Source of the DNA: Paramecium tetraurelia
Taxonomy: Eukaryota
Assembly: GCA_000165425.1 (NCBI GenBank)
Contig: CT868025.1
Coordinates: forward strand, 1 to 64,000
DNA length: 64,000 nt
Direction of reading: 5' to 3'
The notes under the pieces are model-generated. The model saw only the letters and a program-made list of their open reading frames with translations. It did no database searches and was not told the origin of the DNA. This document shows positions 5,487 through 20,337 of the stretch, piece after piece. Numbering within the stretch: position 1 is the first letter of the stretch; every line of letters begins with the position of its first letter. Position numbers and translations under genes: made by a program.

Positions 5487-6696
5487 ATGTTAAAAGTAGC
5501 AGTCTGCACCTTGCTCGTTCTTAGCATTACAGCAATTGATATCTAAGCTTCAGTTTGGACAAGTCACGACTAAAAAATGTTTGCTCAAATCAAATAATCA
5601 GGATGGGGAAACTTTATCTTGAATTTTGGTGAGCTCCATTTATCAACAGGTGGTATCCTTTCAGAACTCAACACAGAAATTGCCAAACTTGTATGATAAT
5701 GTATTTATTTAGATTGATGAATTGGATGAGGAATTAGCAGAAGTCCATCATTAATATGCAAGAAGAACAGATGTCCACAATAGAGAAGTAGGAAGACTTG
5801 AATAAGAAATTTAAGATAAAGAAAGAGGTAATTATATCTATAAAATCATCATTAGAGGTGTTTAACGCTCACGATTTCTATGATAATGTCCTTATCCCAT
5901 AAAGAGATAGATTTGCTGCCCAACTCGAATAATTATAAGAAAACATTTCTTAAAACAGAAGAACCCTTAATGAGGCTACAGTCTAAAGAGCCAATGATCA
6001 TGCTGATTTTGAAGCTAAGGTTTCTGAACACAATGAAGCCATCAGCGCTATCGATGAATCACTTGGTTTACTCAGTCAATTATCAGCACCTTCACTAGTT
6101 TAAATCTAAAAGGTTTAGAAGAATTTGTCAAAAATCTAATAAACCCTCAAAAGACACAGCACTTTCTAAACATTCATCAAGACTCTTATAGAAATCGCTG
6201 TCGAAGCCAACTTTGCCGATTAAGGAGCTCTTAAAGATGTAATTAATGATTAAGATTTATTAAAGATCCTCGTTGCATTCAACAATTTGAGAGTTTAATT
6301 AGTTGATTCACTTAACACAATCACAGCCGATGAAGCTGAAGCATAAAAAGATTTCGAAGCAAGAGTTATTCAATTGAACTAAGAACATGCTGAATTCTAA
6401 AGAGCTGTTGTTGTTAAAACAGCTGAAATCGAAGCTAATGCCAGTATCTAAATTAATTAAATTTAGCCAAAATCGAATAAACACTTGATTTGATTGATGA
6501 ATTACATGCTGATTTGGATACATTGAATGGATAATTGTAAGCTGAAAAAGACGACTTTGCTTTCGCTACCGACGTTTATAATGCCACAGTTGCTGAATAC
6601 AACAAAGAATTGAATGCTGCTCACCAAGCCTTGGATTTATTAAATTAACCAAGATTCACCGATTATGTTAAATCATAACTCAAGGGTGCATTCTGA
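5487..6696 (+). CDS. T1: Trichocyst matrix protein, T1 family precursor
   Basis: [16 protein letters not shown] signal peptide, then [45 protein letters not shown]...[18 protein letters not shown]. This matches the Paramecium T1 trichocyst precursors as I recall them. Four tiny introns. Confidence 0.92.
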
Positions 6697-6839
6697 CCTT
6701 ATTAAATAAAAGTTAAACAAATTCATTTTATATCAAATTTCATTTATTTCACAAACATTATTGTGCATCTTCAACTTTCACCACTTCTATCTTTTCAAGT
6801 AGAGTTAAGACCTCAAAACAATATAAAATGTTCTGATTA

Positions 6840-8200
6840 ATCGAATAATGCAAATAATTTTCAACATTCTATAGAAAATTATAATTAATGGCGAATGAGG
6901 GAGGATTAGAAAAAGTAAAAATTCTAATAAAATATAATACCCTTACCTTCAAGCAGACCACATATTACAAATTAGTAATAAATAAATTGATAAAGATTAA
7001 AGAATTACATAATAATAGAAATCTATAAGCAATGAACACAAAGAGAAAAATAAAATTGCTCTTTTGAAGTGACTGTTAAAGAAGAAAACATTTATGTTAT
7101 GGCCCAACAAGTACAATGCATAGTTGAAGAATTGGAAAAGATGAAATTTTTGAAAAAAACAGATAAATTTTTAATTAAAGGTTAGAACACATTATAAAAT
7201 TAATCTGAAATAAAGAATTTGAATTATCACTCAATAAATAATGCTAAAAATTTGCTTGCTTATCGGTTGCTTTTGGATGAATCAACCATTAAAATGAAAC
7301 CATAAGTCGAACTATTGAACATAAATATTTCAATTATAAATGAATTCTATAATTCAAGTACAAACTCCTGTTAAATTAATTATTAATAAAAGAAGAATTT
7401 AGACTTATAATCATAGAACAATAAATTCATAATTTATTGAAACAAAATTCAATTTAAAGTGCTTTTATATCTATTAATAAAAACCTAATTAATAGTTTAT
7501 GAATACAGATCATTACAAATCTTAATTCAAAGATGAGAGAATTAGAAAAATGTTAAAATTGAAATTTGGATCGAATAGATTAACTGTGAAAATTTAGAAT
7601 ATTAATATATCTTCAAGCTTAGATAATAATTTCATATTAGTTGGCCTCTTAATAAAAATAGGGTAATTGCAACTTTAAAAGAATAATGAAGTTGAATATG
7701 CTTGAAGCGAGTCCTCTTTGAAAAATATTGAGAAAAATGAAGATATATTTGAGATTAATATTATTGCAGGAATCAAAATAGTCTAAATCTATAATTTAAT
7801 TGAATCAAGTAAAATTTAATCTAAAAGTTTTATGGGAAGATTATAAAAATAGATTGAGGAAGTAATGATGAAGTTAGAAAGAGAGAGGATTTAATGAACT
7901 AATGCTTTATTCTTTTAAATAAGGTTTCTGAAGATTTAAAAATTTAATTTGATTAATATTAAGATCTAACAAAATAAGATATTATGTTATTGAAAAAGCA
8001 TGGTTTCGAGTTGATTTTGTAATCAAAGTCCTTTTATATTATGTTCAACAACTGGATTAGACGATGAGTGAATATTATATACACAGTGAGATCATTAGAT
8101 TAAGTAATGAAATTAAATGAGAATATATAAAAAATAATTTGGAACAAGTATATTAATTATTTTTAATTTAATATCATTAATGCTTCCATTGGGGTACATT
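6840..8200 (+). pseudogene. Degenerate coiled-coil-like coding remnant
   Basis: E/K/Q-rich segments (e.g. EENIYVMAQQVQCIVEELEKMKF) are interrupted by in-frame TGA and frame switches. No clean gene model. Confidence 0.3.
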
Positions 8201-8300
8201 GCTTTGTAATATTTAGTTTTTAGTGATTTAAATGCTTAGAATTTGAGAAACTATTAAGGTGAAATGAATAGGAATCGAAGTACAAGGAATTTATGGCAAA

Positions 8301-11300
8301 ATGATTAAAAAAGTCCGAGAGCAAATATACAATAGAAAAAGTAGTGATTAAATATTGATTAGTGAAAGAGTCAGGAAAAAGAGTACTTTCAAGTTTGAAA
8401 ATGTTTAAGATGACATAATTCGAATTTAAATGGCTTCTGATGAGAGTTATGAAATGGATATCAATGAGGAGATAGAAATTGATAAAAAAGCAATGTTTAG
8501 AGGCATGCAAACTGAGATCAGTCCTGATAGAAGAAAAACATTCAGAGCCAAGCACTGGTAAATTTATAAAACTCTCCAATAATACATGGATGAGGAGTTG
8601 ATTGACGAAGAGAAAGAAGATGTTCTAGAGCAAACTCCAACTCCTTTAGTGAGACAAAATCAAAAATTGGCTCCTGATGAGTTAATATTTTAAAAGAATT
8701 TATAAATCCCAGATATTATAGACGAATTTACAAAGTTGTATGAATCTGATCCTCACAATGATAATTACAATCTATAATTAGTACATGTAGAAGGTTGGGA
8801 AGAAATTTGGCTGAACCATCAATTTTATAAAGATACTTATATTTTGCTATGGTTGAGAAAGCTAATTGTAACATTTTTTAATTCAATTTCATTAATTTGT
8901 TATAAAATTACAACCAACATAGTATCGAACTTTATAATGCTATTATTAGTTTCAATAAATATGGTATTGTACATAACCAAATTTTATGATGATGTTTACA
9001 TCACATACAAATCATTATTTGATGGTTGGTCGTTAAGTAATAATATATAATTTTACATTAGTCTTCTTTTGGATTTATGTTGTAGAGCATGGTATAAAGA
9101 TAGTTGGATTAGGATTAGTTGAGTTCTTAAAGGTATTCTGGAATTGCTATGATCTCGTCAATGTAAGATATTGAAAAAGTATTTAGCTTATTCTCTTTGG
9201 GTTGTACATTTATGGCAGTTTAACATTTGACTTCTCTCCCTTAAGAGCAATGAGGATATTGATTCAATTAGCAAAGATCTCTTCGTAATTGTAAAAGACA
9301 TTGAAAGCTTTGACTGAATCTTTGAAATATATGATGGAAGCATCCTTGGTGGTGTTGATATTTTGTATATTCTTTGCCAACGTTGGTGTTCATCTTTTCA
9401 GTTAATTATTATTGAATAGATGTTTCATAATTGAAGAGGGGATCTAAGATATCCAATAGAATATATGTGGGTGGGTGAATTGTCCAAATAATATGAAATG
9501 TTTTAAGTCCTTGAATAATGTGGATACTGCTACTAATTTTGATAATTTCTTTTTTGCATTTGCTCAAATCATTCGTATAATTACCATGGATAATTGGACT
9601 GATGTTATGTATTATACTATGTACACTCTCAGTCCAATGACATGGGTCTACTTTGTTTTGGTCATTTTTATTGTAGGTATGAATTTGCAATATTTTGGTA
9701 GGCTTTTTCGCATTTAATCTAATTATTGCTGTTTTGAAGACATATTATTCATAAATTGTATCCAATTATTAAGAAGATAAAGAAGAGTTGTCAAATAAAC
9801 AATCTTACATCGAACCATTAAACTTAAGGTTTATCAAAAATATTGGATTGTATCATTAGATTAAAACATTATAAAAGGTGCGTAAACGATTTTCTCAATC
9901 AAACGTTTCATAAATTAAGTCAATTGATAATTTAATATTTTCACCAAAAGGAAATCAATTGTTACAGAAATCAAAAATCAAGACCCAATTCACGAATGGG
10001 TTTGGATAAATAAACAAATTGTAGAAAATGGTCAGGAGAGCTAAAACAGTTAAAGAGAAGAAAAAATAATTAAGGTTGATCCTATCTGCTAGACAACAGA
10101 GATTACTCTAAAAGAGAGAGAATGAAGAGATGGGCATAATTAATAGCAATGAGCAAAGCATTTTTGATAAATGTAATTTGAAGGCTATTCTGTAACCACA
10201 AAGAAATTTTAATATTGAATAATCAAAATATGAATAGGCAGTGTAAGGAGATGTTAAGGGTAAGAAGATCTTAATGAGTTTAAAATACAATGATGTGTTG
10301 GCATGGAAATTGGATTTGAAGTATTCTCAATATCATTCTACATCAAAAAGAGATGTAATAAGTGAACTCAAAGAGATTTTAGAGAAAGAAAAGAAATTGA
10401 AAGAGCAGTATGAAAAGGTCAAAAGACAAAATTTGAAATAGTACTATATGTTAGACATTTATGATAAGCAAAAGGATAAAGTAACATAAGAACAGTTGAA
10501 ATCTTCAGATAATGGACCTCCATCTATTCAAAGGCTCTACAGCATTAAGCTTGAAATTAATACTAGAAGTAGAGAATAAAGTACTGCTTCAAAAATCAAA
10601 TAGAAATTTCCGATTAAATTGAGTCGAAGGATGTTTACTTCTGAATTGGATTTGGATAATTCAAAAAATGAAATGCCTAGTAACAAATCAACAATGACCC
10701 GTAAATCGTATTTTGATCATATAAGAAAACAGAGATTATTCTTTTAGAGATCTCAAACTAAAATGGTAAGAGGAACTACTGATGGCTTTATGGAATTTCC
10801 AGAATGGCAAGAGGGGCAATCGTATATCACAATAAATGGTATAAAGTGGAATCATGAAGCCTGTTCAATTTTGATTCATAGAAAGATTAATGATCTGGAT
10901 GATCAGCAGTATTTGGAGGATGACCAGATTTTAGATTTGGATTGGATGGATCAAAATTATGAACACTTTGTTAAAATTAGAGTAATATATTTTGTATTAT
11001 TCTTAATAGAAAAAAGAATTAGAACAAGGATATATAAGGAGACATAATATTTCAATCCTGAATATCTTGTAAAATGTAACCAAAAACAAATTGATCGCAA
11101 TACTTAAATAGCTCAATAAGCATTAGTATAACATTTGGATATAAGGATTTTATGGTTATTGGATAGTTCTTTAATTTAAATTACATTAATTATTGGAAGA
11201 AAAGACTGTCTCAATTATTTTTGACTTGTACACCATGGTTAATTTCTTTATTCTTTGTTCAGATGGCTATTTAAGTTCTGATTTAGTTGATTCAATCAAT

Positions 11301-14300
11301 TCAGTTATGACATTCTTATTATTGGGGGAAATAACTTTGAAGATTATTGGATATGGAATTCAAGATTTTAGTAAAAAGTCTAGCAATAACCTGGATGCTT
11401 TTGTTATTGTTTTGTGTTTGATATAATACTTTATTTCAATCACTGAACCCTTTTGGTTGGTACAATATAGCAGTGAAATTAAAGTATTAAGAGCATCAAA
11501 AGCATTTATGCTCTATAGAGTGATTAAATATAACAAATTTATTGTAAGAATAATGAAGATTGCTTAATTGACAATGAAGTCATATATAAATATCACATTT
11601 TTAATGTTCTATATTATTTTTATGTATGCCATAATGGGATTGTAGTTTTTTGTGAATAAGTTTGATGAAACTTAGAGATTGGCTTAGTTGCATTCATTTA
11701 ATAGCATAGGAAAATCATGGATGACTGTATTTAATACAATTACAAACGACGATGCAGTTGGAATGTTAAAAGTAGCTACCTAATACACTGATACTTGGAT
11801 CGGATTGCTGTTTTATATCACAATGGTATTTGGGTTGAACTATTTAATATATGGTTTGGTGAGTGCAGTATTATTGGATGCATTCTCATCAGAATTAGAA
11901 AAGGGGAATCAGTTTGAGGAGAAGAGAGAGAGAATACTGCAGAAATTAGGAATACAAGAGAATATTAATCAGAATGAGACTCAGTTAGATACGTTATCTT
12001 CGTATAAGAATGAGAAGGATGAAAATGAGGATATCCTTAATGATATAAAAATTTAATAATAATAGTTTATCAAACGATAGACACTTAATAGCAAGAAGAG
12101 CATTTATCAATAAGTGCCTGAAACAGTGAAGCACATATTCAGTAAGTAGAAGTCATTAGAAATATAGTATTATAAAGATATCGAATGCGAATATTCCCTA
12201 TTCATATTCCATTTCAATAATAAATTTAGGAAGTTTTGTTTTAGAACAACTAAATCTTTCATCTTCAAATTTATATTGAATAGTTCAATTTGCTCTTCTG
12301 TAGCTACGATGATCATTATATCATTTGATGATAGTTTGCCATCTTTGCATACAAATAACTTAAACACATTTTATGAATATCATTTATTAGCTGTGAATCT
12401 AATCATTGCAATAACTTATATTCTGGAGATCATTTCTCAAGGGATGTTATTGGATTAAGGAGCATTCTGTAGAGATATTTGGAGATTTATAGATATCTTG
12501 TATTTGATTAGTTATTATTTGTCCTTTATGACTCAGTCTCCATTTTTGAAATTTTCACTTTATCTAAGTAATAATGTATATATTTTAGTCTATTTACGCC
12601 CTTTGATGATGATCAACATGTTTCAAAGCATTTCAGGTATTAAAAATGCGATGAGTTTGAGTCTAGTTCAAATTCTAAATATTATAGGAGTAATTTTGTT
12701 AGTCTTCTTGATATTTGATGTAATAGGAATGCATTTGTATTAAAACAAAATGGGTTATTGTGAAGATCTAATGAATTTCCATGTAAATAATGATCTATGT
12801 TTGCAACAAAATAAGAATTGGATCATTCACCCTTACAATTTCGAAAATATTTTAAATGGATTGTTGACATTATTCTTGGTTGCATCTTTGGATGGATGGG
12901 GAGAAATTATGTAAGTATGCTTTAATGCAAATGATTCTAAATACGGTCCTACTCCTCTAAAAACCTAATGGGCTACCTACTTATTCTTTATTTTGTTTAT
13001 TTTCATTGGAGCCATGTTTTTTATGGGATTCCTTACAGGCGTACTCTTCACTGAATTCTAAAAGTATACTAAAAAGTTAGAAAATAAGTTTTTGACTAGT
13101 GATCAATCATAATTTCTGAAAATCTCAGAATTGATCTTGGAATAAAGTCCTGGATATAGTAATCCTCCAAAGACACCCCTTAGAAGATTGTGTTATAGAA
13201 TTGTGTTTAGTCAATTATACCATAAGTATTTCATAGTTGTGTTATGTGTCAATACTATTGTGTTGTGCTTATTCTATTCAGATGCATCTTATGAATACAT
13301 GTCAAATCTTAATAAGACTTATTAAGTGTTGACAGGAGTGTTTGCTCTTGATACGATTATCAAGTTGTTGGCCTATGGTCCAACTCGATATTTTGGTATT
13401 TATAGTGTTACTATCTAAAGCAACTAATTGGAGAGTTATTGAATTGTCCCTTTCGTTTATTGCTGTTGCTGATTTTATCTATGATAGTTATTGGGGATGG
13501 TTTACTACTTTCTTAAGTGCTAATTAATCTGACTAATACTTCACATTCTATAGGATTTTGTTTTGTTTACGAGACATCCGTATATTGCTGATAATTTAGG
13601 AGTTCAAGGGACTATTGAGATTGCTGAGAGTGCTTTGGTTTTCAATGCCCCTATTGTTAAAGATCTTATACATTCAAGTCATAGCATAAACTACATATGC
13701 TCTAATAGGGAAGGAATTATTTTCGCACATAACCAATGGATCAGTAATTGATGACAAATATGCCAATTTTAAGAACTTTATTAATTCTGCATTATTGATG
13801 TTCAAATGCACTACAGGTGACGATTGGAGAGCTCTGTTAATTGATTGCTCTACTTAAAACTATTATTGCAAGAGTGATCATAATTAGTGTGGATCATCAT
13901 GGTCCTTGCCATTTTTTCTTTCATACTATTTGTTTTCGAATATCATCATTATGAACCTATTTGTGCTAGCCTTAGTGGATTAATTTGAAAGTATTCAAAC
14001 ATCATTATGTCTTAGATTTTTTTAATGCTTCAACTAATGCCATCCAGACGTTTGTGGAGAATGTAGATCATTTCTGTAATGTTTGGTGTAAATACACATA
14101 TGAAACTAAAGGAACCAAAATGCATACTCGTTTTATCGCGCGCTTTTTGTTAGATTTACATGAACCCTTAGGAGCACTGGAAGGAGATAATGTATGGGAT
14201 GCAGCTAAGAGTGCTTCTAATTTCAGAATAAGAGCAAATAAGCAAGGTTATGTGTATTTTAATGAATTACTTTATGAGACAATTCGATTTGCTTTTAAAG

Positions 14301-14952
14301 AAAGTGTATTCAAATCAGGATCATTGATAGGTAGATCACAAATGAAATAATTTGACTTAGCTATGAAAAGGAAAATGAAAGAAAATAACATGAAATCAGA
14401 ATAATAATAAGATTAAGAATATTTTTAGGATGAATACAGTTCCAAGCATTAAAACTTCAACATCCTTTCAGAATATTTAAATGTGTTGATTGCTCTTAAG
14501 ACATGGGAAGCTTACACTTTGAAACTCATAGAGAAAACAAAAAATCTTGATGAATACACAGAACAAACCAGTTCGTCAGGAAATGATCTGAAATTGTCAA
14601 TGAATATCGGAGCCTCAGTTTCAAGGGCATCTTAAAATAGATTAACTTAGACGATAGACTTGGATGATCTTAGAGTGCAAAGGAATTATGGACATTTGAA
14701 TATTTACAAGGAAACTAAATCATATCAATATTACTAACATTGCATTATATTAGAACCCATAAGCAAATCGTCACCATAAGATACCACTGTTCAAAGATCT
14801 CCGTCAAGTTTTCTTGAAAATCAAAGTAATTCATTATTAACTCTTTAGAATAAGCTAATGCTAATCCAAAGAAAACGAACATCAAAAGATAGTCGTCATT
14901 ATTTAAACAAAATGTACAATCATTCAAAGATGTGCTAGAAAAAGTATTTTGA
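8301..14952 (+). CDS. Four-domain (24-TM) voltage-gated-type cation channel alpha subunit (Cav/Nav/NALCN superfamily)
   Basis: Four S1-S6 repeats with pore loops IITMDNW, TITNDDA, VASLDGW and CTTGDDW. S6 motifs FFAFNLIIAVL and IIMNLFVLALVDQF, then a C-terminal LHEPLG/VYFNELLY region like that of Cav/Nav. About 8 tiny introns. Start ATG is tentative. Confidence 0.9.
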
Positions 14953-14989: not shown

Positions 14990-15989
14990 TCAAAATGCAA
15001 TTTATTATTTCTTTCTATCTTCCAATTCTTCTTCTTCCTCGTACTACAATTTCACTCTTGGTTTCTTCTTCTTAACATCCTTCACTTCATCATCTAAGAT
15101 TATTATTAATGCTTACCATCTCTCCTTAATTAATTAAATGTCTATTTCTAAAACAATCTTTTATCATCCTCTTCATCATCTTGCTCTTAATCTTCTTCAT
15201 CATCTTCTTCTAAATCATTTGGATCAAATATCAATTCCTCATCTGAGTAATCTTCCTCCTCCTCTTCCTATTCCTATTGTTCTCTCTATAGAAATAATTA
15301 TTCATTAGAATTTACTTCTTCTTCATCCTCCACTTAATTCTAACCAACGAATTTCTCAAAAGCCTTAGTATTGTAATTCATAATCTCATTGTATACTCCA
15401 TTTTTCAATCTGTCTATCAATTCCTATTCTATGGCATTCTCCAAATTGGCAGCCACCAATGCTTTCTATTCTCTGATCTTATCTCTTCTTTCTGCCTTCT
15501 TTTTAATCGGAATCAATTCCTTGCTATTATATATTATTGTTTCATACAATCCCTTCAATCGCATCTTCCTTATTCTTATCAACATCTGTCTTAGCTTAGT
15601 CAATCTTTGCTTATTTTTGTGAATCATGAAGTTACTCCAATATTTTAACTATTCATCTATTTAAGCCAATGCCTATAATTGATATTTTTTGTAAGTTTAC
15701 TTATTCATAGTTCTTCGATAATAGTATCTTCTCCCATAATTCTTTTGGTTTTTATGCTCTTTCTGCTGTTTTTACATAAAGATAACATAATCCCTTTTCT
15801 TCTTTAATTGTGGCATATTATGAATTTGCCAATGGACAGGATTATTTAGAACACAACCCTGTCACATTATATTCATTTCTACAGAAATTCTAGGAGATTG
15901 TTCTAGTCATAGTACTTTTATTCTTACTTTATCTTAAATGAACAATGACCTCGATTTATCACCTACCACACAACTTCGTCAATTTACAT
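14990..15989 (-). CDS. MAK16: MAK16 60S ribosome biogenesis protein
   Basis: MQIDEVVWQVINRGHCSFKIK / [27 protein letters not shown] / LYVKTAERA..PKELWEKI, with an acidic C-terminal tail. Tiny introns. Confidence 0.95.
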
Positions 15990-16042: not shown

Positions 16043-19000
16043 TCAAGACAATCCCTTCTTCTTCTTCTTCTCCAACCAAATCTTCTTCTCCTTCTTCTAA
16101 AATGCCTCAATCCTCAACTTATAATTCTCCTGATCCACTATTAAATATGGCTTAACATCCTCATCATTATATTCCAAATCCTTATTCTTATCATCCTTAT
16201 CCAAATCCCTCTTAGTTCTCTTCTTCTTAACTTCTTCAAAATTCTCAAAGTACTTTCCTTGCACCTTGATTGTAAGATTCTATATCAGTTGTGCTAATTG
16301 TTTATCTAATTCTTTCTGATATTATTCTTTTTACTTTTTAGTTGTCTATCTCTAATTCTTAGCAAACTTCTCAATGACATTCAATTGCTTTCTCTACTTC
16401 TCATCCAACAACTCCAAATTCTTCCTAAACATCACAGCATCCCTACTATCTTTATCATCAGGATTCTACGATTACTATAGAAACGCAGTCAACTTGTTAA
16501 TCATCTTCCATCTCTTCAGATTCGGCTCAGTCTTAATTTTAATAAATTATTTACCGTCAATCCTAATTTACTAGATATATTTTGAATGTCTTCTACATGC
16601 AACTTACGTAAATCGTTCTCAGTACCCATTACCGAAGGCTTCTTCTCTTGGATAGCATTCTAGCCTTTCTCCCCTCTAGCCTTAAGTGGTTTCTTAATGT
16701 AATTTAAACCTCCATGTCCTGATGTGGGATCTCCAATTCCATACAATAGCATCCTTCCTGTTTAATTGGCTGAATTCAAAAAGGACTGAGACAAGGACCA
16801 TGCAGTCATATTTAGTTCATCTTCAACCCTCCTTGCAATAACCCAACTATTAAAATCCTAAGGGTTTCTTGACAAGTATTCCTAGAGAGTTTTCTTCATC
16901 TTATCACTGTTCTTGAGTTCTCTCAACCCAAACTCTTATAATAGATAAGAGGAATGCAACATAGACTCATACAAGCACACTTGATTGGCAGTTATGTCAT
17001 ACTTAAGAATCTGGATGTCATCATTGCCTCCTTTCTGATATCTCCAAGTTTTTTGATTAGAAGAATCCTGTATCCCTTTACATTCTTTCAGAGCTGATCT
17101 AATGTAGGCGTGACTCTGTTTCTGACTTTGTTTTTGATTTTATTTTTAAAATATTAATTCCAATTCGTCTTATTTGACTTCCAAACCCATCTTAAACTAT
17201 TTCTTTATATAGGTCTTTAGACAATTCTTTAAGAATGTTCCCAAAGGTCTAGACTGAGGAGTAAAGATTTCTACTTTAGGCTCAATTTAACCAACTAAGT
17301 ATATACAATCTATAGGCCTAAGTGTATACTTATAATGGCAATTATCAACTCTTGTTCTCACCAATAGAAAATCAGTGACTGGCAATTTCTATTTGAAAAT
17401 TGGAGCCCTGTAAAGATCATTCTCTATAACTGCTATCCCTATAAATCGTTCATCTGTAAGTTGACCCTAAAGTGGTATTGCTTAATTCTTATCGAGAAAT
17501 CTAATCTAACCTATATTACCCAATTGTTCAACCAACATATTTTTGAATTCCCAAAGAGCCATCTCCTCATTCGTAATCTATCCCATTTATCCATAGGTGC
17601 TTCTGTAATTAGCTTAGACACTATTCTCTTAAAAGTTATTGTAATTATCACCTTCATCCTTAATTCTTTTCTAATTAAATTGTTGTAGTGCCCTACTAGA
17701 ATAGACATACCTAGTCACTTTAGAGCACATTCCAGTATTGTTCAATAATAATGGCCTCTATTCAATATACTCCATCAATATAAAGTTACCCTTCGACAAG
17801 GATAGATTGTCGATCTATTTATAATACTCATGACTATTCTATTTCTCGGTTGATTCTTCAAGTAATACTTCCCTATTGTCCTTCTTTTGTTCCTTTAAAT
17901 TCACCAAGGGAACCAATTCAGTCGGCCATGGATCAAAATATTTGACTTGCTCTCTTTCCAATCCAAGAAGTTCTCTTTTCTCTTCATATAAATTGTCTAC
18001 AATATTATTCCTATGGTATTTTGCATGTTTCGACAACACCTAAGAAAAATCATTTAAGAGAAATGACTCAGCCACCAAAGAATGTATATAAAATGGTGTA
18101 GTTTAAAACGCCTTCATTTTAGATTCAATTAAATTCAATAATTCCTTATTCCCCACATCCTCATTGCCAAATTACTAATTGAAATCCTGTTGTTGTTGTA
18201 TTCCATCTTCAAACTATGACAAATCCTAAGACTCCTACTAATCCTCTACACTTAGTAAATTCACATGAGATACAGCACTTCTATTATCCTTTTGTCTTGA
18301 CACTATTGATGGAGCAGCCAATCTATTAGCCAATTATTATTATGTCCCTACTTTCTCTGGAAACTTCTTTTAGTGCAATAACACCTCCAATTTCTCACTA
18401 AAGAATTGTCGATTCTAGAGATCAACTTCAACTCTATTATAAGTTTGAAACGATCTTGATAAGAAGTTATCCTTGTGACCCATACAAAATTCGACAATCT
18501 CTTTGTTGTAATATGAATAATTATCCAAAGCGTTCTGAAATTCCTATTCCTTTTTATCGATTTCAACTTATTTATAGCTTTCATCTGGTTGTTAATTTTA
18601 TTAATTCTATTACTCATTCAATTTCTTTTCGTCTTCTAATTGTTACTAAATACGCTGCAATAATCCCATTCCTGCCTCATCAGTTTATGCTTGGCATTTT
18701 AAAGAAGTAAAATCTTACTATGGACATTGATACAAAAAGGATTCTTTGTTAATAATCCTTTCATGTTTTTGAGATTCAACTTCTGCTTTGAAATCATCCT
18801 TTTATTATTCAAATAATTTGAATTTATCAGCAAAAAACCGTTTCAAATTCTCACTGTCTTTCTATCTAATCTAGGCTTCTATTTCCATTTGATTCTTTTT
18901 TGGATCCTAATCCACTTAGATTTATTACTAGTACTCCTCATTCTCTTCTGGTTACTGCACATTAATCTCATTCCCATTCTTCATTCTCTCCTAAATTTCT

Positions 19001-19881
19001 CTCTTGTAATTTATGCCCTCCTCCAACTTTATCTTTTTATGTTTTTTGTTGATCATATCATTTAATTCCTGATAGAATTTAGGCGTTAATAGTGGATTAT
19101 ATGAACTTTGCATCATTCCATAAGGGTTTTCAACTACTTCCTCTTAGCATAAGATTGTATAGTTGTCCTTGCTCTCATTTTATAACTTAGTATAGAGGGA
19201 CAGTCTTTTGTCTAGACTCTTCAAGCATTTCTGCTTTTTGAAGGAATTCAAGATGATTTCTGAATCCTTATTCTACTGTAAGTGTTCCTTGATTTATTGA
19301 TCAGTCAAAACAGAGAAAAATTGCATCAAGGAGTCATAGTAATCAGCATCAAAGGACTTAGTTTTCTTATACTTGTACAGAATGATGTTAATCACTTTGT
19401 CGTAGATCATTCTAACATCCTCACTGGCGGCATAATAAAAATCAGAAAATGCATAGACTGGATATTTAACATTTTAGGATTAACGAGTATTGTTGGTTTA
19501 TGCTGATGACTAATTGCTTCTTAATTCCATTTGACGTAAAAAGGTTCTCAATTAGGGGTTGCTTCTCAAATATTCATTTTAATCCTAATCGGGAGCCAAT
19601 TTCATATTCTACAAATTAGGCTCATTGATCTTCAGATTCTATCTTTGAGTAATCCTCTTTTGCTCTACGTCACTGGCTCCCTCCTCTTCCTCTTCGTCAT
19701 CGCTTGTATCATCATTTTAATCTTGGGGTTTGAATCCTGCAAATAATGCATCGCAGTCTAAAATGTCTTTGAAGTGTCGCATTGCAAAGTTTAAATCTAA
19801 ACTGCTTTTATCTCTTTAATTCATTTCATTAACATCCTCAAACTGGGCAAATAAAATATCTAAAAGGGCCTCGTTTATCAT
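16043..19881 (-). CDS. TAF1: TFIID subunit 1 homolog (DUF3591/TAF1 core)
   Basis: TAF1-core motifs in the expected order: IHSLVA, SLSKGNFILMEYIEQRPLLLNNTGM, ACLYESM, TAWSLSQSF..GRMLLYGIGDPTSGHGGLNYIK, VMGTENDLRKL. Confidence 0.85.
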
Positions 19882-20337
19882 TAATAGTTAAAATATTTAC
19901 AAATTATATATAAGTTTATATTAATTAGCCCAATTATTTGATAATTAATATTATAGGAACTACAGATAGCTATTATTATTATAACTCAGTTTTATAAAAT
20001 TAGTTTATTCACATAAGAAGATCTATAGCAATACTCAAAAATTCTAGCTATTCTACATACTAATGTTGGGGATTTCTTTTCATTACTGATTCTCCATATT
20101 TGTCTGTTTAAAGTTAAGAATAGGGTGTTCTCATGGGAGAGTATTGATGTTGATTACAATAATCCTTTCGTTAATTTTCAGTAAGAATTCTTGAGTCTTA
20201 AATTACAAAAAAACATCATTAACAATAAGGCACGAATTAGGAATATTAAATTATTAATGCTGCTGATAGTGATAATTAATGTATGGGTTTATGTTGAAAT
20301 TATTTAAATATTATATCAATTAGAGATTATTAAAATC

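What the first reader, a model, noticed from the sequence alone, without database searches (positions are those of the whole stretch)
9589..13821. Four-domain cation channel with an all-aspartate (D/D/D/D) selectivity filter
Seen: the filter position of all four pore loops is Asp, namely DI TMD-NW (9589), DII TND-DA (11748), DIII SLD-GW (12891) and DIV TGD-DW (13819). Known: animal Cav1/2 use EEEE, Cav3 EEDD, Nav DEKA and NALCN EEKE/EEEE, while the heterotetrameric CatSper uses four Asp. DII also has Ala where the near-invariant Trp lies two residues after the filter, and DII and DIV add a second Asp. Inference: this is a divergent, probably Ca2+/divalent-permeable channel class distinct from canonical Cav. 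It is the strongest candidate for an uncharacterised system in this window, though protist channel surveys may already list it.
Basis: partly seen in the sequence, partly recalled or inferred. Interest (0 to 1): 0.7.

Follow-up and report, generated by a model that had tools for sequence, protein, structure and literature searches.

The report
Paramecium all-aspartate four-domain cation channel
This is a real, intact Paramecium ion-channel gene with four aspartates in its pore, but a 2018 survey already lists this very gene and its class; what remains open is which current these channels carry and why this small subgroup lost a pore tryptophan that almost all related channels keep.

Summary
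Asp codons at 9589, 11748, 12891 and 13819 occupy the filter column that is Glu in Cav controls. The gene (+ strand, 8180-14952, nine introns, 2182 aa) is intact, under purifying selection (dN/dS 0.067 against its ohnolog) and weakly transcribed.

It is not new. It matches Paramt17 (XP_001430688.1) of Pozdnyakov et al. 2018 (PMC5824947), who defined ciliate subclade Ic by D/D/D/D, charge-poor S4 segments and an IQ motif. In this genome 23 of 41 regions examined carry D/D/D/D.

One detail I did not find in print: the DII Trp-to-Ala change two residues after the filter. It marks a three-gene subgroup, holds in 7 of 7 subgroup homologues and in more distant table-6 sequences (Ala or Ser), and goes with Thr-to-Ser in DIII.

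Best reading: a Ca2+-permeable channel that depolarisation gates weakly or not at all, a candidate for one of Paramecium's Ca2+ currents other than the ciliary action-potential current. No functional data were found.

The parts
8180..14952 (+). Whole gene, ATG to TGA, 10 exons, 2182 aa four-domain cation channel (table 6)
   Evidence: Spliced model is open and colinear with homologues: 93.9% identical to P0001 with three small gaps; Pfam Ion_trans on three exon pieces and four stretches in P0001
8341..14848 (+). Nine predicted GT-AG introns of 21-28 nt: 8341-8368, 9037-9061, 9163-9186, 9677-9701, 10982-11009, 12568-12588, 13396-13420, 13991-14015, 14826-14848
   Evidence: Inferred from frame and colinearity; GTA..AG at all nine aligned places in ohnolog L031; removal of 12568-12588 gives the DIII S4 printed for Paramt17. 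No junction was listed by the RNA reads
9235..9285 (+). DI S4, charge-poor (3 K/R in the counted window)
   Evidence: identical to Paramt17 S4-DI
9589..9591 (+). DI filter Asp445; +1 is Asn in this subgroup (8 of 8) but Asp in 38 of 38 Trp-type D/D/D/D relatives
11481..11528 (+). DII S4 (5 K/R, but with the regular three-residue spacing broken)
   Evidence: identical to Paramt17
11748..11753 (+). DII filter Asp1147 and +1 Asp1148 (the 'calcium beacon' position of animal Cav)
   Evidence: beacon described in PMC10120453 and PMC4436565
11754..11756 (+). Ala1149 in place of the near-invariant Trp at filter +2 in DII; marks the three-gene subgroup
   Evidence: codon GCA in window and L031; Ala in 3 of 27 D/N-filter genes of this genome, 7 of 7 subgroup homologues, L071, P0247, P0250; Ser in P0112 and P0238
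12549..12620 (+). DIII S4 (2 K/R), split by the 21-nt intron
   Evidence: identical to Paramt17
12885..12893 (+). DIII filter Asp1521 (12891) with Ser at -2 (Ser 8 of 8 in the subgroup; Thr 37 of 38 in Trp-type relatives)
13086..13097 (+). DIII-DIV linker at the Nav inactivation-gate position, with a charged first residue
   Evidence: same four residues as listed for Paramt17; Paramt19 differs
13546..13602 (+). DIV S4 (3 Arg and one Asp)
   Evidence: identical to Paramt17, one residue different in Paramt19 = L031
13819..13824 (+). DIV filter Asp1822 and +1 Asp1823
14483..14515 (+). Degenerate IQ-like motif in the C-terminal tail
   Evidence: aligns with the Cav IQ region; listed as the IQ motif of Paramt17; calmodulin binding not tested

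Best explanation
A member of ciliate four-domain channel subclade Ic. One chain folds like a Cav/Nav alpha subunit (sequence and model evidence). Its four filter Asp and two +1 Asp form an acidic Ca2+-binding pore, so it most likely passes Ca2+ in preference to Na+ (inferred). Its S4 segments have lost much of their charge, so depolarisation gates it weakly or not at all; it probably opens by another route such as hyperpolarisation, membrane tension, a ligand or Ca2+/calmodulin at the degenerate IQ motif (inferred). It is therefore a candidate for one of the Paramecium Ca2+ conductances other than the ciliary action-potential current. The DII Trp-to-Ala change removes one of the four Trp contacts that brace the pore loops and probably makes this subgroup's filter looser or more asymmetric than that of its 20 D/D/D/D paralogues (inferred).
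For: Filter placement by alignment and model; top fold matches Cav2.2, Cav2.1 and Nav1.7. Gene intact, dN/dS 0.067 overall and 0.03-0.05 in the four membrane domains; low sense poly(A) signal in 3 of 3 RNA runs of one study, and no 58-mer of the gene could come from the ohnolog at that stringency (0 of 6714). S4 K/R 13 against 18-21 in five controls. PMC5824947 calls Ic 'likely voltage-insensitive' with D/D/D/D. PMC10120453 says a +1 Asp goes with Ca2+ selectivity whether the filter is Glu or Asp (for one-domain channels). Engineered Asp-rich CavAb is Ca2+-selective, and CatSper3/4 have Asp filters. Paramecium has a hyperpolarisation-activated, highly Ca2+-selective current distinct from the depolarisation-activated one (PMC2229130 abstract) and anterior mechanosensitive Ca2+ currents (PMC8208649).
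Against: No recording, knock-down or localisation was found for any Ic gene. Filter letters predict selectivity poorly: EEDD T-type channels range from 20% to 94% Na+ permeability and an Asp-ring EukCatA channel is non-selective. DII S4 keeps five basic residues. Piezo genes are a competing source of the mechanosensitive current. Expression in the runs read is low and splicing was not shown.
Confidence: 0.55

Rival explanations
1. A non-selective or Na+-permeable channel: either a NALCN-like background leak, or the Ca2+/calmodulin-activated Na+ channel recorded in Paramecium membrane patches, with calmodulin acting at the IQ-like motif in place of a voltage sensor.
For: Charge-poor S4 as in NALCN and Cch1; IQ-like motif kept across the clade; a calmodulin-restored Ca2+-dependent Na+ channel exists in Paramecium (PMC9608856); Asp rings can be non-selective; loss of the DII Trp and of the DI +1 Asp could lower Ca2+ affinity in this subgroup. 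The N/D/D/N sister group would fit this role even better.
Against: No Lys in the filter; +1 Asp in both DII and DIV; the IQ motif lacks its Gln and binding is untested.
Confidence: 0.25
2. An ordinary depolarisation-activated Ca2+ channel with shifted or shallow voltage dependence, driven mainly by DII S4.
For: DII S4 has 5 K/R and every S4 keeps 2 or more; the clade sits with ciliate EEEE channels in the tree; the model keeps full S1-S4 bundles.
Against: DI, DIII and DIV S4 have lost the every-third-residue Arg pattern and DIV S4 holds an Asp. The ciliary action-potential channels characterised so far are E/E/E/E.
Confidence: 0.1
3. A poorly conducting or intracellular channel-like protein (ion sensor, scaffold, or a vacuolar or alveolar release channel), with the lost Trp a sign that the pore no longer needs a rigid filter.
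For: Among 465 pore loops in 144 related proteins the +2 residue was aromatic in 464; the one exception is a relative of this subgroup. Transcript level is low.
Against: All four Asp, both +1 Asp and the small residue itself are fixed across lineages only 45% identical and in L071. That looks like a maintained pore rather than decay. S6 helices are ordinary.
Confidence: 0.08
4. Pseudogene, or an artefact of alignment or gene model.
For: No spliced junction was listed and depth is low.
Against: Open 2182-codon frame, dN/dS 0.067, introns at the same places in the ohnolog, homologues 88-94% identical in three other species.
Confidence: 0.02

Closest known systems
Ciliate FVCC subclade Ic, entry Paramt17 = XP_001430688.1 (Pozdnyakov et al. 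2018, PMC5824947)
   Same: The same gene by all six listed motifs (four S4, inactivation-gate position, IQ); D/D/D/D filter, charge-poor S4 and IQ motif are the subclade's stated traits; the N/D/D/N and N/E/D/N variants the paper names are also found here.
   Different: The passages and tables I read do not mention the DII Trp loss. The third subgroup gene (L032 = P0005) has a DI S4 that is not among the 34 Paramt rows of Table S2. The paper gives no functional data.
Paramecium ciliary CaV1a-c (E/E/E/E; Lodh et al. 2016, seen only as cited in PMC5824947 and PMC8208649)
   Same: Four-domain architecture, same organism.
   Different: Glu ring, and EEEE ciliate channels have Arg-rich S4; here an Asp ring and charge-poor S4.
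Animal Cav1/Cav2 (EEEE) and Cav3 (EEDD)
   Same: Fold, P1-filter-P2 geometry, DII +1 Asp, IQ region.
   Different: About 21-24% identity; Asp in all four filters; second +1 Asp in DIV; S4 charge 13 against 18-21; no Trp at DII +2.
NALCN / fungal Cch1
   Same: Four-domain with charge-poor S4; Cch1 also lacks one +2 Trp, in DI (PMC6259924); Ca-type NALCN has a DIV +1 Asp.
   Different: Filter is D/D/D/D, not E/E/K/E or EEEE. No NALCN or Cch1 sequence was in my tree, so kinship was not tested here; the 2018 paper places them in a separate clade.
CatSper and engineered CavAb
   Same: Asp at the filter with Asp or Gly at +1; Ca2+-selective.
   Different: Tetramers of one-domain subunits; the likeness is most simply convergent (inferred).

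Membership tests
FVCC subclade Ic | D/D/D/D selectivity filter | tested here: met
FVCC subclade Ic | At least one Arg/Lys-poor S4 | tested here: met
   3/5/2/3 K/R
FVCC subclade Ic | IQ motif present, pre-IQ not detectable | tested here: met
   degenerate IQ aligns with Cav IQ; the paper lists pre-IQ as not identified for Paramt17; I did not search for pre-IQ separately
FVCC subclade Ic | Groups with the other D/D/D/D, N/D/D/N and N/E/D/N Paramecium channels | tested here: met
   27 genes of this genome form one clade, SH-like support 1.0
FVCC subclade Ic | Listed in the published data set | tested here: met
   six motifs identical to Paramt17; ohnolog L031 carries the DIV S4 difference of Paramt19. 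The full accession sequence was not compared
Cav1/Cav2-type voltage-gated Ca2+ channel | E/E/E/E filter | tested here: not met
Cav1/Cav2-type voltage-gated Ca2+ channel | Four Arg/Lys-rich S4 | tested here: not met
Cav1/Cav2-type voltage-gated Ca2+ channel | Asp at +1 in DII | tested here: met
Four-domain channels in general | Trp ring at filter +2 | tested here: not met
   Ala in DII; ring described in PMC6259924
NALCN/Cch1 | Phylogenetic membership and E/E/K/E or EEEE filter | tested here: inconclusive
   filter not met; no NALCN or Cch1 sequence in the tree
CatSper | Heterotetramer of one-domain subunits | tested here: not met
   single chain with four Ion_trans repeats
Ca2+-selective channel | Measured PCa/PNa and gating | not testable with these tools
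   needs electrophysiology

The most novel reading that the evidence does not exclude
The Trp-less subgroup is a functionally distinct, natural 'unbraced-filter' four-domain channel, kept well beyond the aurelia species. It, or the wider Ic clade, encodes one of the Paramecium currents for which I found no gene assigned: the hyperpolarisation-activated Ca2+ current of the escape reaction, or the Ca2+/calmodulin-activated Na+ current. That would be a four-domain channel opened by hyperpolarisation or by calmodulin rather than by depolarisation.
Probability: 0.2. Interest if true: 0.7.

Novelty: already known. Interest (0 to 1): 0.3.

Why it matters
The D/D/D/D class and this gene are in print, so the headline is not a discovery. 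Its value is as a lead. At least 27 four-domain channel genes of this genome belong to a clade with no functional data that I could find, in an organism with recorded currents for which my searches showed no gene. The three-gene Trp-less subgroup is small enough to silence as a set. It also offers a natural test of what the +2 Trp ring does for selectivity and gating, a question usually approached by mutating animal or bacterial channels.

Tried and rejected
Shifted DII register (filter one residue later): rejected; alignment with Trp-type paralogues and Cav controls and the model agree on 11748. Start at 8301: replaced by 8180 after comparison with homologue N-termini. Reading 12568-12588 as coding: rejected; GTA..TAG is kept in the ohnolog while the inside differs, and homologue and published S4 lack it. 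Run X1 as evidence of expression: rejected; its contigs cover the intergenic stretch and cross predicted introns without gaps. The run index listed no holder on record as RNA. Tree: 11 of 70 rows were at or under 60% occupied, and three fragments (P0091, P0141, P0218) were placed unreliably (P0091 has an Ic-type DII filter yet fell outside the clade), so they were not used for any claim; deep nodes are weak. S4 counts for paralogues built from chained hits have gaps, so only full-length rows were used. One of 44 genome matches, the weakest (C657:119751), was not fetched. The representative-protein search gave no long close relative; its 11 hits nearest to Ic were fragments of 76-403 aa. Lodh 2016 and Yano 2013 (ciliary proteome) are not held, so ciliary presence could not be checked. 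The direction of the Trp-Thr contact between domains was not found in the listings. Two look-ups in earlier scan findings returned nothing.
Full report
Observation. In an alignment of the window protein with the 32 proteins, these are the columns that hold Glu in animal Cav and in a Tetrahymena EEEE channel. An AlphaFold model of DII, DIII and the start of DIV (735 residues, mean pLDDT 70.9, 81-84 around the DII pore loop; it retains one 7-residue in-frame intron) puts both Asp third in the loop between helices P1 and P2. The DII Ala is the first residue of P2, where DIII has Trp. Its best structural matches are Cav2.2, Cav2.1 and Nav1.7.

The gene. It runs on the + strand from 8180 to 14952 with nine introns of 21-28 nt and encodes 2182 aa. 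It is 88-94% identical to four proteins of P. pentaurelia, P. primaurelia and P. sonneborni, with only small gaps. Against its ohnolog L031, dN/dS is 0.067 over 2174 codons and 0.03-0.05 in the membrane domains, and GTA..AG ends stand at all nine intron places. Three poly(A) runs from one study show low depth on the sense strand: 0-2.2 in most bins and 2.6-5.3 near the 3' end, against 10-75 for the neighbouring gene. No predicted junction was listed. None of 6714 58-base windows of the gene is within one mismatch of the ohnolog, so these reads are unlikely to be cross-mapped. Transcription is supported; splicing is inferred.

The family. A search of the genome with the DIII pore gave 44 matches. 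The window and 40 fetched regions cover 43 of them. D/D/D/D occurs in 23 of these 41 regions, N/D/D/N in 3 and N/E/D/N in 1; the rest are Glu-type, odd or only partly read. The 27 D/N-filter genes form one clade (FastTree, 1065 columns, SH-like 1.0), next to a group of ciliate EEEE channels. Paralogue rows were chained from tblastn hits, 11 of 70 rows were poorly occupied, and deep nodes are weak. Among 44 Paramecium proteins from a second search, D/D/D/D is the rule, with two truncated, two gapped, one DDRD and one DDND row. Short fragments with the same DII filter come from unnamed assemblies, so the clade extends beyond the named species. The S4 segments of this protein hold 3, 5, 2 and 3 Lys/Arg, 13 in all, against 18-21 in five EEEE controls.

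It is in print. Pozdnyakov et al. 2018 (PMC5824947; I read passages, most of the Results, the Discussion, the part of Table S2 holding the ciliate rows, and rows of Tables S1 and S3) define ciliate subclade Ic by the dominant filter D/D/D/D, at least one Arg/Lys-poor S4 and an IQ motif. They call it likely voltage-insensitive and name N/E/D/N and N/D/D/N variants. Their row Paramt17 (P. tetraurelia XP_001430688.1) has the same four S4 segments, inactivation-gate residues and IQ motif as this gene; L031 carries the one DIV S4 difference of Paramt19. The same paper reports D/D/D/D in Chlamydomonas, and a review lists DDDD among protist filters (PMC6259924, passages).

What I did not find in print. 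[quoted passage not shown] Among 465 pore loops located in 144 of 150 representative relatives, +2 was Trp in 451, Tyr in 10, Phe in 3 and Ser in 1 (the profiles were built from Trp-bearing loops, which biases the count toward Trp). Here DII has Ala in 3 of 27 clade genes (window, L031, L032), which form a subgroup with support 1.0. Ala is kept in 7 of 7 subgroup homologues (P0001-P0007; P0005 is L032 itself), across two lineages about 45% identical. It is also in metagenome locus L071 (72% protein and 70% DNA identity) and in fragments P0247 and P0250, with Ser in P0112 and P0238. The subgroup also has Ser for Thr at DIII -2 (8 of 8 against 1 of 38), Asn for Asp at DI +1 and Asp for Trp at DI +4. 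These rows are related, so this is shared ancestry, not proven co-evolution. That Trp +2 bonds to Thr -2 of a neighbouring domain is recalled, and the direction was not confirmed. Other Ic branches relax DIV +2 to Phe (7 of 27). Searches listed no paper on this Trp loss, and searches 28, 56 and 73 none on Ic function; I judged most of these from listings, and subscription papers are largely missing.

How it probably works. Shown: a conserved four-domain chain with a six-Asp filter region, charge-poor sensors and a degenerate IQ motif. Inferred: Ca2+ preference, from the +1 Asp rule, CavAb and CatSper (PMC10120453, PMC4436565, PMC7041947; passages), and gating that does not rest on depolarisation. 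Paramecium has a highly Ca2+-selective current activated by hyperpolarisation (PMC2229130, abstract), located in the somatic membrane, as well as mechanosensitive Ca2+ currents (PMC8208649, passages) and a calmodulin-dependent Na+ channel (PMC9608856, passages). Ic channels are candidates for these, but nothing here links gene to current. Against Ca2+ selectivity: EEDD channels range from 20% to 94% Na+ permeability, and an Asp-ring EukCatA channel is non-selective. I put Ca2+-preferring with weak or no depolarisation gating at 0.55, non-selective or Na+-permeable at 0.25, ordinary depolarisation gating at 0.10, non-conducting or intracellular at 0.08, and pseudogene at 0.02.

Verdict. Real, already known as a class and as a gene, and functionally untested as far as my searches show. 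The Trp-less subgroup is a small addition that makes a tractable experiment. The ciliary proteome and ciliary Cav papers could not be read and may bear on localisation. Interest 0.3.

Noticed in passing
L040, L050, L053, L054 (G000:C646, C7, C4, C14): Four paralogues with N/D/D/N or N/E/D/N filters; L040 and L050 have Lys just before the DIV filter Asn. They are sister to the Trp-less subgroup (0.947) and are better candidates for a Na+-permeable channel. The filters are named in PMC5824947.
   Followed up: partly
L033, L038, L039, L043, L051, L052, L056: DIV +2 is Phe rather than Trp in 7 of 27 clade genes, a second relaxation of the Trp ring in this clade.
   Followed up: partly
P0057, P0061: A P. 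sonneborni protein aligns with Arg at the DIII filter (DDRD) and a P. primaurelia protein with DDND and an altered DIII P2 helix; possibly decaying copies, errors or new selectivities.
   Followed up: no
L067, start of L059, L060: Channels with Leu at the DIII and DIV filter and Ser in DII, and one with two Arg just before the DIII filter Asp; they seem to match the E/S/L/L and E/Q/D/E types of PMC5824947.
   Followed up: no
L044 (G000:C46), DIV pore: The frame appears to change just before the DIV filter, and protein P0053 from a contig of the same length lacks aligned DIV filter residues: unread intron, assembly error or broken copy.
   Followed up: no
window 15085-15861 (-) and 16519-20034 (-): Downstream neighbours: Mak16 (Pfam E 2.4e-17), well expressed and 94% identical in the ohnologous region, and a DUF3591 protein (E 1.1e-52; TAF1-like, recalled). 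No functional link to the channel is evident.
   Followed up: partly
window 5633-6729 (+): Upstream coiled-coil gene without a Pfam match above cut-off, resembling a trichocyst matrix protein (recalled); a poly(A) loose end lies at 6729.
   Followed up: no
window 6987-8134: About 1.1 kb with short ORF-like pieces, no reads in three RNA runs and about 63% identity to the ohnologous region; a silent or decayed gene, or a long intergenic stretch.
   Followed up: no
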